A stretch of 64,000 nucleotides of DNA, from assembly GCA_951406725.2 (NCBI GenBank), contig OX597820.1, positions 101,494,001-101,558,000 on the forward strand, read 5' to 3'. Numbering within the stretch: position 1 is the stretch's first letter; each line of letters starts with the position of its first letter. The translations under genes were made by a program, and so were the position numbers. Source of the stretch: Octopus vulgaris (Eukaryota). Below are positions 53,187 to 58,747 of this stretch, in pieces. Under the pieces are notes generated by a model. It saw nothing but the letters and a program-made list of their open reading frames with translations. It was not told the origin of the DNA and did no database searches.

Positions 53187-53241
<55 letters not shown>

Positions 53242-53388
53242 TTACGAGATAAAACCACTATTAGGCAAATCAATAATAATAGTGGTTTTATCTCTAATTT
53301 AATATAATATAATATAATATATTTATACTATAAAATCGGATTTAATCCTAAATCTGATTTTTCCCTGTAAGTTTGGATTTATTCCCTA

Positions 53389-53434
<46 letters not shown>

Positions 53435-53801
53435 GAGTAACAGGTTTTGTTGAATTTTCTGCTGCTTTAAATAAAGTGTATATATATAAATTAATAATTT
53501 TTAATTTTTAACTTTAAATCTAAATAATTTAAAATTTGAATTTTATATATTTTGTATATTATATTAATTAATTTTATTTCTATGTTTTGGTTTATGTTTT
53601 TCACTGTTTGTTTTGCCTAATAGTGGTTTTATCTCTAATTTAATTTATATATATAAATATATATATATACGCACACATGCACACGTACATATTAACATGC
53701 GTATACATACACACGCACACACATATATAAAATAGAGATATATGTACTATACATATATATTAATATCTATGCATGTATATATATATATATATGTGTGTGT
53801 G

Positions 53802-53883
<82 letters not shown>

Positions 53884-54056
53884 TGTATATATATACATAT
53901 AAATATAACACATATATATTTACATCCCCCATCGACTATATGGAAGCGACCCGAATATTCGAATATTCCACGGGAATTTTCAAGGACGATGTTTCCATAA
54001 TGTCATATGTGTATATATCTATACATATATATATACATAAATATATATATGTATAT

Positions 54057-54114
<58 letters not shown>

Positions 54115-54252
54115 TAAGAGAGTGGTCACTATATGGCTCACTCTAGCACCAGTTAATCCAAAAGGTTTCAACCACAAAAATACATGTTTCCCATGAAAGT
54201 CAGTACGATTGTTAGCTCACACGGACAGGGCAAATAAAAAATAACAAAATAC

Positions 54253-54346
54253 AGATTATTTTGGGACAATTGTTTCGCTATTAATGAATTAAATGTAATT
54301 TTACTTACAATAAAATCCACTTGTAGCTCTTCAGCCAAAACTATCT
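54253..54346 (-). ncRNA. Type I hammerhead ribozyme, array copy 1
   Basis: Reverse strand reads agatagttttgg-CTGAAGA-gcta...tagc-GAAAC-aatt-GTC-ccaaaataatct. Stem I ttttgg/ccaaaa, stem II gcta/tagc, GUC cleavage triplet. Confidence 0.88.
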
Positions 54347-54786
54347 GGATGAAATCCACTCAATCACACGCCAGATTTTACCATAACGATAAATACGCGT
54401 GTGGTTCAATTGATTACATCCGACGTTATAATTCAAATGCCCCAACTAACAGCGCGCCAAACTCTCACGGAAAACAAATACAGCATTTAGAAATAAATGC
54501 AGCATAATTATAATTAATTAATAAGGGTGAGAGAATTAGATACTAATTTAATAGTATATCTATTCTACACCAAGTGGCCTAGTGCTCCGAGAAACCTGGA
54601 TTATTATAATATTTTATAATATATTATAATATTTTTACAAAATAAATATAAGAGAGTGGTCACTATATGGTTCACTCTAGCACCAGTTAATCCAAAAGGT
54701 TTCAACCACAAAAATACATGTTTCCCATGAAAGTCAGTACGATTGTTAGCTCACACGGACAGGGCAAATAAAAAATAACAAAATAC

Positions 54787-54879
54787 AGATTATTTTGGGA
54801 CAATTGTTTCGCTATTAATGAATTAAATGTAATTTTACTTACAATAAAATCCACTTGTAGCTCTTCAGCCAAACTATCT
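54787..54879 (-). ncRNA. Type I hammerhead ribozyme, array copy 2
   Basis: Same motif, with one T missing from the stem I 5' strand. Confidence 0.85.
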
Positions 54880-55319
54880 GGATGAAATCCACTCAATCAC
54901 ACGCCAGATTTTACCATAACGATAAATACGCGTGTGGTTCAATTGATTACATCCGACGTTATAATTCAAATGCCCCAACTAACAGCGCGCCAAACTCTCA
55001 CGGAAAACAAATACAGCATTTAGAAATAAATGCAGCATAATTATAATTAATTAATAAGGGTGAGAGAATTAGATACTAATTTAATAGTATATCTATTCTA
55101 CACCAAGTGGCCTAGTGCTCCGAGAAACCTGGATTATTATAATATTTTATAATATATTATAATATTTTTACAAAATAAATATAAGAGAGTGGTCACTATA
55201 TGGCTCACTCTAGCACCAGTTAATCCAAAAGGTTTCAACCACAAAAATACATGTTTCCCATGAAAGTCAGTACGATTGTTAGCTCACACGGACAGGGCAA
55301 ATAAAAAATAACAAAATAC

Positions 55320-55412
55320 AGATTATTTTGGGACAATTGTTTCGCTATTAATGAATTAAATGTAATTTTACTTACAATAAAATCCACTTGTAGCTCTTCA
55401 GCCAAACTATCT
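55320..55412 (-). ncRNA. Type I hammerhead ribozyme, array copy 3
   Basis: Same motif as copy 2. Confidence 0.85.
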
Positions 55413-55950
55413 GGATGAAATCCACTCAATCACACGCCAGATTTTACCATAACGATAAATACGCGTGTGGTTCAATTGATTACATCCGACGTTATAATTC
55501 AAATGCCCCAACTAACAGCGCGCCAAACTCTCACGGAAAACAAATACAGCATTTAGAAATAAATGCAGCATAATTATAATTAATTAATAAGGGTGAGAGA
55601 ATTAGATACTAATTTAATAGTATATCTATTCTACACCAAGTGGCCTAGTGCTCCGAGAAACCTGGATTATTATAATATTTTATAATATATTATAATATTT
55701 TTACAAAATAAATATAAGAGAGTGGTCACTATATGGCTCACTCTAGCACCAGTTAATCCAAAAGGTTTCAACCACAAAAATACATGTTTCCCATGAAAGT
55801 CAGTACGATTGTTAGCTCACACGGACAGGGCAAATAAAAAATAACAAAATACATTTGAATTTGAATTATAACGTCGGATGTAATCAATTGAACCACACGC
55901 GTATTTATCGTTATGGTAAAATCTGGCGTGTGATTGAGTGGATTTCATCC

Positions 55951-56044
55951 AGATAGTTTTGGCTGAAGAGCTACAAGTGGATTTTATTGTAAGTAAAATT
56001 ACATTTAATTCATTAATAGCGAAACAATTGTCCCAAAATAATCT
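55951..56044 (+). ncRNA. Type I hammerhead ribozyme, array copy 4
   Basis: CTGAAGA at 55963-55969, GAAAC at 56021-56025, GTC at 56030-56032. Stems I-III are complementary. Confidence 0.9.
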
Positions 56045-56484
56045 GTATTTTGTTATTTTTTATTTGCCCTGTCCGTGTGAGCTAACAATCGTACTGACTT
56101 TCATGGGAAACATGTATTTTTGTGGTTGAAACCTTTTGGATTAACTGGTGCTAGAGTGAGCCATATAGTGACCACTCTCTTATATTTATTTTGTAAAAAT
56201 ATTATAATATATTATAAAATATTATAATAATCCAGGTTTCTCGGAGCACTAGGCCACTTGGTGTAGAATAGATATACTATTAAATTAGTATCTAATTCTC
56301 TCACCCTTATTAATTAATTATAATTATGCTGCATTTATTTCTAAATGCTGTATTTGTTTTCCGTGAGAGTTTGGCGCGCTGTTAGTTGGGGCATTTGAAT
56401 TATAACGTCGGATGTAATCAATTGAACCACACGCGTATTTATCGTTATGGTAAAATCTGGCGTGTGATTGAGTGGATTTCATCC

Positions 56485-56578
56485 AGATAGTTTTGGCTGA
56501 AGAGCTACAAGTGGATTTTATTGTAAGTAAAATTACATTTAATTCATTAATAGCGAAACAATTGTCCCAAAATAATCT
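56485..56578 (+). ncRNA. Type I hammerhead ribozyme, array copy 5
   Basis: Same motif 534 nt downstream of copy 4. Confidence 0.9.
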
Positions 56579-57018
56579 GTATTTTGTTATTTTTTATTTG
56601 CCCTGTCCGTGTGAGCTAACAATCGTACTGACTTTCATGGGAAACATGTATTTTTGTGGTTGAAACCTTTTGGATTAACTGGTGCTAGAGTGAGCCATAT
56701 AGTGACCACTCTCTTATATTTATTTTGTAAAAATATTATAATATATTATAAAATATTATAATAATCCAGGTTTCTCGGAGCACTAGGCCACTTGGTGTAG
56801 AATAGATATACTATTAAATTAGTATCTAATTCTCTCACCCTTATTAATTAATTATAATTATGCTGCATTTATTTCTAAATGCTGTATTTGTTTTCCGTGA
56901 GAGTTTGGCGCGCTGTTAGTTGGGGCATTTGAATTATAACGTCGGATGTAATCAATTGAACCACACGCGTATTTATCGTTATGGTAAAATCTGGCGTGTG
57001 ATTGAGTGGATTTCATCC

Positions 57019-57112
57019 AGATAGTTTTGGCTGAAGAGCTACAAGTGGATTTTATTGTAAGTAAAATTACATTTAATTCATTAATAGCGAAACAATTGTC
57101 CCAAAATAATCT
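57019..57112 (+). ncRNA. Type I hammerhead ribozyme, array copy 6
   Basis: Same motif 534 nt downstream of copy 5. Confidence 0.9.
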
Positions 57113-57379
57113 GTATTTTGTTATTTTTTATTTGCCCTGTCCGTGTGAGCTAACAATCGTACTGACTTTCATGGGAAACATGTATTTTTGTGGTTGAAAC
57201 CTTTGGATTAACTGGTGCTAGAGTGAGCCATATAGTGACCACTCTCTTATATTTATTTTGTAAAAATATTATAATATATTATAAAATATTATAATAATCC
57301 AGGTTTCTCGAGCACTAGGCCACTTGGTGTAGAATAGATATACTATTAAATTAGTATCTAATTCTCTCACCCTTATTAA

Positions 57380-57416
<37 letters not shown>

Positions 57417-57558
57417 TATGCATATATGTGTGTGTATATATGTATATATATATATATATGTGTATGTACATATATATGCATATATATATGTATAGATATA
57501 TATATGAGTGTATATATATGTACATATACAAACACACAGATATATATGTATACATAAC

Positions 57559-57593
<35 letters not shown>

Positions 57594-57595
57594 AC

Positions 57596-57662
<67 letters not shown>

Positions 57663-57689
57663 CATGTATATATGTGATGTATATATGTG

Positions 57690-57725
<36 letters not shown>

Positions 57726-58270: not shown

Positions 58271-58581
<311 letters not shown>

Positions 58582-58747
58582 TTTCTATATGAATAATATA
58601 TAGTCTAACGACTAATTCGTCTTTTGTGCTAGGCCACTGGTAATAATAATTTATTATTACCCTATGTATAATGAATATATATATATATATATATATATAC
58701 AAACTTATATAAATGAATGCATACTTATATTTACACACACATATATA

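What the first reader, a model, noticed from the sequence alone, without database searches (positions are those of the whole stretch)
55715..56050. Array inversion point lies 11 nt from a predicted ribozyme cleavage site
Seen: the left arm (ribozyme sense on minus) stops matching the unit at 55853. By the 533-nt period the next cleavage site would be at 55864/55865, so only the 11 nt gattattttgg are missing. The junction shows CA microhomology and a short tttgaa duplication. The arms point outward and both 3' ends sit in (TA)n. Inference: the left arm is a cDNA whose 5' end is almost exactly a self-cleaved RNA end, joined to a second inverted cDNA. That resembles Penelope-type inverted 5' structures and implies in vivo cleavage of a multimeric template before reverse transcription.
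Basis: partly seen in the sequence, partly recalled or inferred. Interest (0 to 1): 0.75.

Follow-up and report, generated by a model that had tools for sequence, protein, structure and literature searches.

The report
Two-armed ribozyme repeat; breakpoint is chance
This is one of more than 850 insertions of a small non-coding repeat with a predicted self-cutting RNA motif, laid down as two back-to-back arms likely copied from one RNA by a Penelope-type transposon enzyme; its junction lying 11 bases from the predicted cut site is likely chance, because 98% of the arms that reach that site continue past it.

Summary
The junction is as described. The unit is 534 nt (not 533) with a type I hammerhead motif; the left arm stops 11-13 nt short of the next predicted cleavage site. 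The inference drawn from that distance fails. In 209 5' ends from 124 loci, 6 fall 0-11 nt downstream of the site against 5.4 expected, and 307 of 313 arrivals read through it. Genome-wide, 7 ends lie exactly at the site, against 6, 2 and 4 at control positions.

What holds is Penelope-type anatomy: (TA)n targets; one arm ends at unit position ~160 and the other at ~290; both arms share one template sequence; 18 of 76 pairs stop at about the same template point (3.3 expected). Best reading: a non-autonomous Penelope-dependent retrozyme; both cut DNA ends prime cDNA on one uncleaved or circular RNA, then are end-joined. Three other loci have both arms ending within 3 nt of the site, a possible rare trace of in vivo cleavage. 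The scan noted the two-arm, two-end layout before in other families; cleavage, circles and the partner enzyme are untested.

The parts
54012..54105 (.). (TA)n target, left flank
54106..55853 (-). Left arm (class A): about 3.3 tandem 534-nt units, 3' end at unit phase 159, 5' end at phase 12 (12-14 with microhomology); crosses three predicted cleavage sites (C at 54265, 54799, 55332)
55852..55865 (.). Head-to-head junction: CA microhomology with a 6-nt duplication, or a 5-nt templated insertion
55859..57388 (+). Right arm (class B): about 2.9 units, 5' end at phase 361, 3' end at phase 290; predicted cleavage after 56032, 56566, 57100
55951..56044 (+). Predicted type I hammerhead: extended stem I (phases 453-464 with 1-12), CUGAAGA core, long stem II, GAAA, short palindromic stem III, GUC
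   Evidence: core conserved across loci; not assayed
56033..56566 (+). One full 534-nt unit from predicted cleavage site to the next; used as reference
57260..57388 (+). About 130-nt 'tail' between the two fixed 3' ends (phases 161-290), present at the right end only
57389..57721 (.). (TA)n target, right flank

Best explanation
This is a young insertion of a non-coding, hammerhead-bearing 534-nt tandem repeat whose two outward arms were likely made as two cDNAs primed from the two ends of one cut in (TA)n by a borrowed Penelope-like enzyme, and whose junction likely lies near the predicted cleavage site by chance. Inferred steps: the enzyme cuts both strands; one DNA end starts at unit position ~160 and the other at ~290 on the same RNA; both run through the ribozyme sites, so the template is an uncleaved multimer or a religated circle; they stop at varied places, often close together, and host end-joining links the two cDNA ends with microhomology or short templated inserts. 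Shown: anatomy, the two fixed ends, shared arm sequence, read-through, breakpoint distribution. Not shown: cleavage, circles, the enzyme.
For: One A end and one B end in 24 of 25 simple two-arm loci not selected on ends (the 25th: 160 and 244); no A/A or B/B (p about 6e-8). In 94 loci selected on a B end, no B/B. Arm-to-arm divergence 0.24% vs 0.17% within arms and 2.9% between loci (41 loci); fixed differences in 0 of 25 loci; 3 loci carry a private allele in every turn of both arms. Length B minus length A = 130+-30 in 18 of 76 pairs, 3.3 expected; other offsets 0-6. Microhomology of 2 nt or more in 25 of 61 insert-free junctions vs 18.7% expected. (TA)4 on both sides in 116 of 130 loci. Breakpoints 0-11 nt downstream of the site 6 vs 5.4; read-through 307 of 313. 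Autonomous RT + GIY-YIG elements in the same genome show the same one-tail rule in 4 of 4 inverted copies seen among 20 fetched loci. In vitro a Penelope-like protein cuts and extends both strands, starts at two internal sites, is predicted dimeric and does not need hammerhead cleavage (PMC11167929).
Against: No autonomous partner with matching sequence among 20 fetched loci. Circle versus uncleaved multimer is not resolved: 2 sites (L034, L068) show minor alleles shared in register between arms, which fits heterogeneous multimers, while 47 of 51 testable minor alleles are not shared. Same-source arms could come from two transcripts of one locus or from gene conversion. An excess of ends at -45..+16 in the 3'-selected sample (33 vs 15.9, window chosen after seeing the data) shows the ribozyme region is not neutral. 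51 of 76 pairs are formally compatible with fold-back copying. TSDs cannot be read in (TA)n (2 candidates in 130 loci).
Confidence: 0.7

Rival explanations
1. One reading: the left arm ran off a self-cleaved 5' RNA end and lost 11 nt during joining.
For: End is 11-13 nt from the site. Hammerhead core is conserved, 3 of 673 vs 15.3 expected, so the ribozyme matters somewhere in the cycle. Three other loci (L174/L157, L177, L182) have both arms ending at phases 1-4 and none in that search passes the site (p about 0.002 on n=3).
Against: No excess at 0-11 nt (6 vs 5.4) or 0-30 nt (11 vs 14.6). 7 exact ends among 2088 occurrences vs 6, 2, 4 at controls, p=0.11-0.18. Co-terminated junction count at the site equals the control (3 vs 3). 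Here the partner arm ends at phase 361, far from the site, and the left arm crosses three earlier sites.
Confidence: 0.08
2. One cDNA folds back and primes on itself (self-priming as proposed for rotifer Penelope elements); the endonuclease resolves the second end at the other fixed site, and later asymmetric deletion trims the palindrome centre.
For: 24 of 78 pairs end within 30 nt of the same phase (9.3 expected); several junctions are exact palindromes; shared arm sequence follows directly; self-priming and endonuclease resolution are proposed in PMC3846280 and PMC8557442 (passages).
Against: In 25 of 76 pairs, this locus included, neither arm is contained in the other, so later deletion is needed. 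Single-arm copies end at either fixed site, so both are real start points. Either arm can be the longer by kilobases.
Confidence: 0.14
3. The arm stopped because reverse transcriptase stalls at the folded, uncleaved ribozyme: phase 12 is the foot of the extended stem I. This is compatible with the best explanation and would replace 'chance'.
For: Stem I pairs phases 1-12 with 453-464. 6 of 210 ends lie at phases 12-17, about 2.7 expected from the rate. The near-site excess spans stems I-III and lies mostly upstream of the cut.
Against: Small numbers, window chosen afterwards; absent in the youngest 40 loci; the excess vanishes (20 vs 18.3) when co-terminated pairs are left out.
Confidence: 0.15
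4. Assembly artefact from fold-back long reads.
For: This junction was not seen in contigs of 4 DNA runs.
Against: Arms end at different fixed phases; flanks are not mirrored; 67 of 94 sampled loci have an inverted or complex layout; other such joints occur in short-read contigs.
Confidence: 0.02

Closest known systems
Metazoan non-LTR retrozymes (PMC7229834, passages; bioRxiv 10.64898/2026.07.22.740005, part 1 of 5 and passages)
   Same: Non-coding, low-GC tandem repeat with one type I hammerhead per unit, dispersed in many copies; proposed to be a non-autonomous Penelope derivative.
   Different: Unit 534 nt (about 300 nt typical there), long stem II. The passages seen do not describe head-to-head arms, two fixed 3' ends or breakpoints relative to the cleavage site. 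RNA cleavage and circles shown there, not here.
Endonuclease-bearing Penelope-like elements with inverted pLTR and tail (PMC8557442, PMC3846280, passages)
   Same: 5'-truncated tandem copy with an adjacent inverted 5'-truncated copy; tail at one end only; (TA)n targets; microhomology at 5' junctions.
   Different: No ORF; tail about 130 nt instead of 30-40 nt; both arms can be multimers.
Anolis Poseidon element in vitro (PMC11167929, main text read)
   Same: Two internal reverse-transcription start sites that define the tail; both strands cut and extended; hammerhead cleavage not required for insertion.
   Different: That work does not address inverted copies, whether both ends use one RNA, or non-autonomous templates.
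L1 twin priming (recalled; PMC2837659 seen as search listing only)
   Same: Two target ends prime two cDNAs on one RNA and give an inverted 5' segment joined by microhomology.
   Different: In L1 the second primer anneals at variable internal sites and the arms hardly overlap; here both starts are fixed and the arms overlap over whole units.

Membership tests
Non-LTR retrozyme | Tandem short repeats with a type I hammerhead in each unit | tested here: met
   Motif scan and folds; 286 of 316 complete motifs have an intact core. Rfam gives no hit.
Non-LTR retrozyme | No protein coding, no LTR/PBS/PPT | tested here: inconclusive
   Elements consist only of the 534-nt unit between (TA)n flanks; no formal ORF or PBS scan was run on the unit.
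Non-LTR retrozyme | Dispersed mobile copies | tested here: met
   852 exact 3'-end matches, different flanks.
Non-LTR retrozyme | RNA self-cleaves | not testable with these tools
   Only conservation: core 3 of 673 vs 830 of 36551 overall. U4C core change in all units of 3 loci and most units of a fourth.
Non-LTR retrozyme | Accumulates as circular RNA | tested here: inconclusive
   Contigs of 4 runs only guessed to be RNA cover the unit and close on themselves; a tandem transcript or DNA gives the same.
Penelope-mobilised (non-autonomous PLE) | Head-to-head inverted 5'-truncated copy | tested here: met
Penelope-mobilised (non-autonomous PLE) | Two 3' ends separated by a tail, tail at one end | tested here: met
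   Phases ~160 and ~290; tail longer than the published 30-40 nt.
Penelope-mobilised (non-autonomous PLE) | AT-rich or microsatellite targets | tested here: met
   116 of 130 loci with (TA)4 on both sides.
Penelope-mobilised (non-autonomous PLE) | Sequence link to the pLTR of an autonomous element | tested here: inconclusive
   20 of 150 scored GIY-YIG loci fetched, two families; only weak AT-rich similarity.
Penelope-mobilised (non-autonomous PLE) | Target-site duplication (variable in PLEs) | tested here: inconclusive
   Unreadable in (TA)n; 2 candidates in 130 loci.
   6 vs 5.4 at 0-11 nt; 307 of 313 read through; 7 vs 6, 2, 4 genome-wide.

The most novel reading that the evidence does not exclude
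A Penelope-like dimer uses its two active sites on one and the same circular retrozyme RNA, one at each fixed start site, rolls round the religated cleavage junction and tends to stop both cDNAs together; the rare loci with both arms ending at phases 1-4 record the linear, self-cleaved form of that RNA in the germ line. Breakpoint maps of such families would then read out the Penelope integration cycle and in vivo hammerhead cleavage from genomes alone.
Probability: 0.3. Interest if true: 0.72.

Novelty: new member of a known kind. Interest (0 to 1): 0.4.

Why it matters
The single-locus claim is ordinary. The family-level pattern bears on an open question: how Penelope-like elements make their tandem and inverted insertions and what the hammerhead does in that cycle. 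The data say cleavage is not what sets most 5' ends, that each inverted insertion uses each start site once, and that both arms come from one template sequence. These are direct predictions for the existing in vitro Penelope system.

Tried and rejected
Rfam at gathering and E-value thresholds: no hammerhead hit; one miRNA hit is the inverted repeat itself. First genome-wide end pattern excluded T two bases upstream and missed TA-flanked ends; redone. Rows dropped before the breakpoint count: 2 copies by descent (L130, L132), 8 complex loci, 2 loci cut by the fetch edge (resolved: ends at 354, 420, 508, 218, none at 0-11 nt) and one arm of L143. The idea that the window's arms had different templates (533 vs 534) was rejected: the T-run difference is not fixed. 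Window junction absent from contigs of X1, X2, X6, X7: no evidence either way. No listed holder is on record as RNA; guessed-RNA contigs cannot show ends or circles. Autonomous partner not found through GIY-YIG loci or through a neighbouring family with similar tail motifs. U4C cores as proof that cleavage is dispensable: rejected, since U4C variants may keep activity (recalled, no call). Microhomology was scored against the window's unit, so some 'insertions' in diverged copies may be divergence. Search of earlier findings by sequence gave nothing.

Full report
Observation. The window holds two outward-pointing arrays of a 534-nt unit between (TA)n tracts. Taking the first base after the GUC as phase 1, the left arm (54106-55853, minus) runs from phase 12 to a 3' end at phase 159, and the right arm (55859-57388, plus) from phase 361 to phase 290. 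The junction reads as CA microhomology with a 6-nt duplication or as a 5-nt templated insertion. Each unit carries a type I hammerhead motif with an extended stem I, a long stem II and a short palindromic stem III (z = -3.7). Rfam does not call it. Across loci the core is conserved: 3 changes in 673 positions against 15.3 expected.

Sample. The window lies in G000, a 2.8-Gb animal genome. An exact 33-nt 3'-end pattern has 852 matches. I fetched the 40 scored candidates of 1101 and 96 of the first 100 listed pattern matches, the other 4 being already held. The second set is selected on the phase-290 end but not on 5' ends. After dropping 2 copies by descent, 8 complex loci, 2 loci cut by the fetch edge and one atypical arm, 209 5' ends from 124 loci remained.

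With a null that accounts for arm length, 6 ends lie 0-11 nt downstream of the predicted site against 5.4 expected, and 11 at 0-30 nt against 14.6. Of 313 arrivals at +11, 307 read through. Genome-wide, the 19-mer after the site occurs 2088 times; 10 lack the expected upstream bases and 7 of them are true ends on inspection. The same design at phases 93, 433 and 524 gave 6, 2 and 4 true ends (p = 0.11-0.18). The design misses ends whose flank supplies the expected letters. One end of two falls at 0-11 nt by chance in 4.4% of loci. The 11-nt distance therefore carries no weight, and this arm itself crosses three earlier sites.

Results that point the other way. In the 3'-selected set, ends at -45..+16 are about twice the expectation (33 vs 15.9); in the 40 youngest loci they are not (4 vs 8.0). 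Most of the excess lies upstream of the site, inside the ribozyme, which run-off from a cleaved end cannot produce, and it disappears when pairs ending at nearly the same phase are left out (20 vs 18.3). Exactly at the site the selected set has 2 ends against 0.3 (p = 0.05). A genome-wide search for junctions with both arms ending near the site found 3 loci, as many as at a control position. All three end at phases 1-4 with one arm exactly at phase 1 and none passes the site (p about 0.002 on three cases). These may be rare run-off products of a self-cleaved RNA. The window's locus is not one of them.

What the family shows. Inverted or complex layouts occur in 67 of 94 loci of the selected set (5 of these rest on short arms of 9-26 nt). 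One arm ends near phase 160 and the other near 290 in 24 of 25 simple two-arm loci not selected on ends; the exception ends at 160 and 244. No locus has two ends of the same class. Single-arm copies end at either site. The arms of a locus differ by 0.24%, turns within an arm by 0.17%, and arms of different loci by 2.9% (41 loci); 0 of 25 loci have fixed differences. In 18 of 76 pairs the B arm is 130+-30 nt longer than the A arm, meaning both stop at about the same template point (3.3 expected; other offsets 0-6). Junctions are enriched for microhomology (25 of 61 with 2 nt or more, 18.7% expected) and 18 of 79 carry inserts. In 25 of 76 pairs, the window included, neither arm could be a fold-back copy of the other.

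Mechanism. Most likely a Penelope-like enzyme in trans cuts (TA)n, each DNA end primes a cDNA at one of two fixed sites on one RNA, both read through the ribozyme junctions, and host end-joining links them. Read-through requires an uncleaved multimer or a religated circle. I could not separate these: in-register minor alleles at 2 sites favour multimers for those loci, 47 of 51 testable alleles are not shared, and contigs cannot show ends or circles. Two autonomous RT + GIY-YIG families in G000 also insert in (TA)n and have two 3' ends about 30 nt apart; 4 of 4 inverted copies among 20 fetched loci carry the tail on one arm only. Neither matches the unit in sequence, so the partner is unidentified.

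Artefact check. This junction was not in contigs of 4 DNA runs, which proves nothing for a young insertion; 6 other joints of the same kind were. The flanks are not mirrored.

Literature. PMC11167929 (parts 1-2 of 4, main text): both strands cut and extended, two internal start sites matching the tail, predicted dimer, hammerhead cleavage not needed in vitro. PMC8557442 and PMC3846280 (passages): inverted 5'-truncated copies, tail at one end, (TA)n bias, self-priming and endonuclease-resolution proposals. PMC4209133 (part 1 of 4): palindromic helix III and dimeric hammerheads. PMC7229834 (passages) and bioRxiv 10.64898/2026.07.22.740005 (part 1 of 5 and passages): animal retrozymes, circles, Penelope origin. 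PMC13282606 (passages) added nothing. Six searches showed no paper mapping breakpoints against hammerhead sites or testing shared templates between arms; subscription papers and supplements were not seen. L1 twin priming, polymerase theta-type joining and activity of U4C cores are recalled. The scan's own notes report the two-arm, two-end layout in other families; these are unchecked and not independent support.

Verdict. Real structure, known kind of element; the headline inference is not supported. The remaining value is the family-level footprint and three possible run-off loci.

Noticed in passing
L174 (= L157, L284), L177 (= L285), L182 (= L286): Three loci with different flanks where both arms end at phases 1-4 of the unit; two share the same junction. 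Candidate run-off products of self-cleaved RNA.
   Followed up: partly
L237:2244-7493 and 18 related loci (L234-L250, L252, L253): Young autonomous element in (TA)n: 479-aa upstream frame plus 781-aa RT + GIY-YIG frame, ~500-nt direct repeats, two 3' ends 33 nt apart; no hammerhead found in its repeats by my scan. The extra upstream frame has no convincing Pfam hit.
   Followed up: partly
L251:4121-7283: Second RT + GIY-YIG family with inverted arms, a ~30-nt tail on one arm and an AT palindrome weakly like unit phases 148-197.
   Followed up: partly
window 58367-58680: Another short outward two-arm element in (TA)n with a tail on one arm; shares short motifs with the tail of the 534-nt unit; 2406 first-look candidates in G000; no hammerhead or long ORF tied to it in 30 loci.
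   Followed up: partly
window 53237-53650: Short inverted segments between TA tracts, possibly another small two-arm insertion.
   Followed up: no
L143: Inverted arm starts at phase 104, not 160, with a 28-nt duplication of flank sequence that overlaps the arm start by 4 nt: looks like classical twin priming with a readable target-site duplication.
   Followed up: partly
L047, L063, L091, L034: Young copies with a U4C change in the hammerhead core in all units (mixed in L034) on both arms.
   Followed up: partly
L179: Internal jump from the CUGA of the core directly to phase 1, removing phases 469-534.
   Followed up: no
L235, L242, L246, L260, L261, L265, L279: Other hammerhead-like motifs from different families lie in fetched flanks.
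   Followed up: no
L075, L130, L132; L184, L187: The first three share flanks and breakpoints (copied inside another repeat); the last two share breakpoints 111/93.
   Followed up: partly
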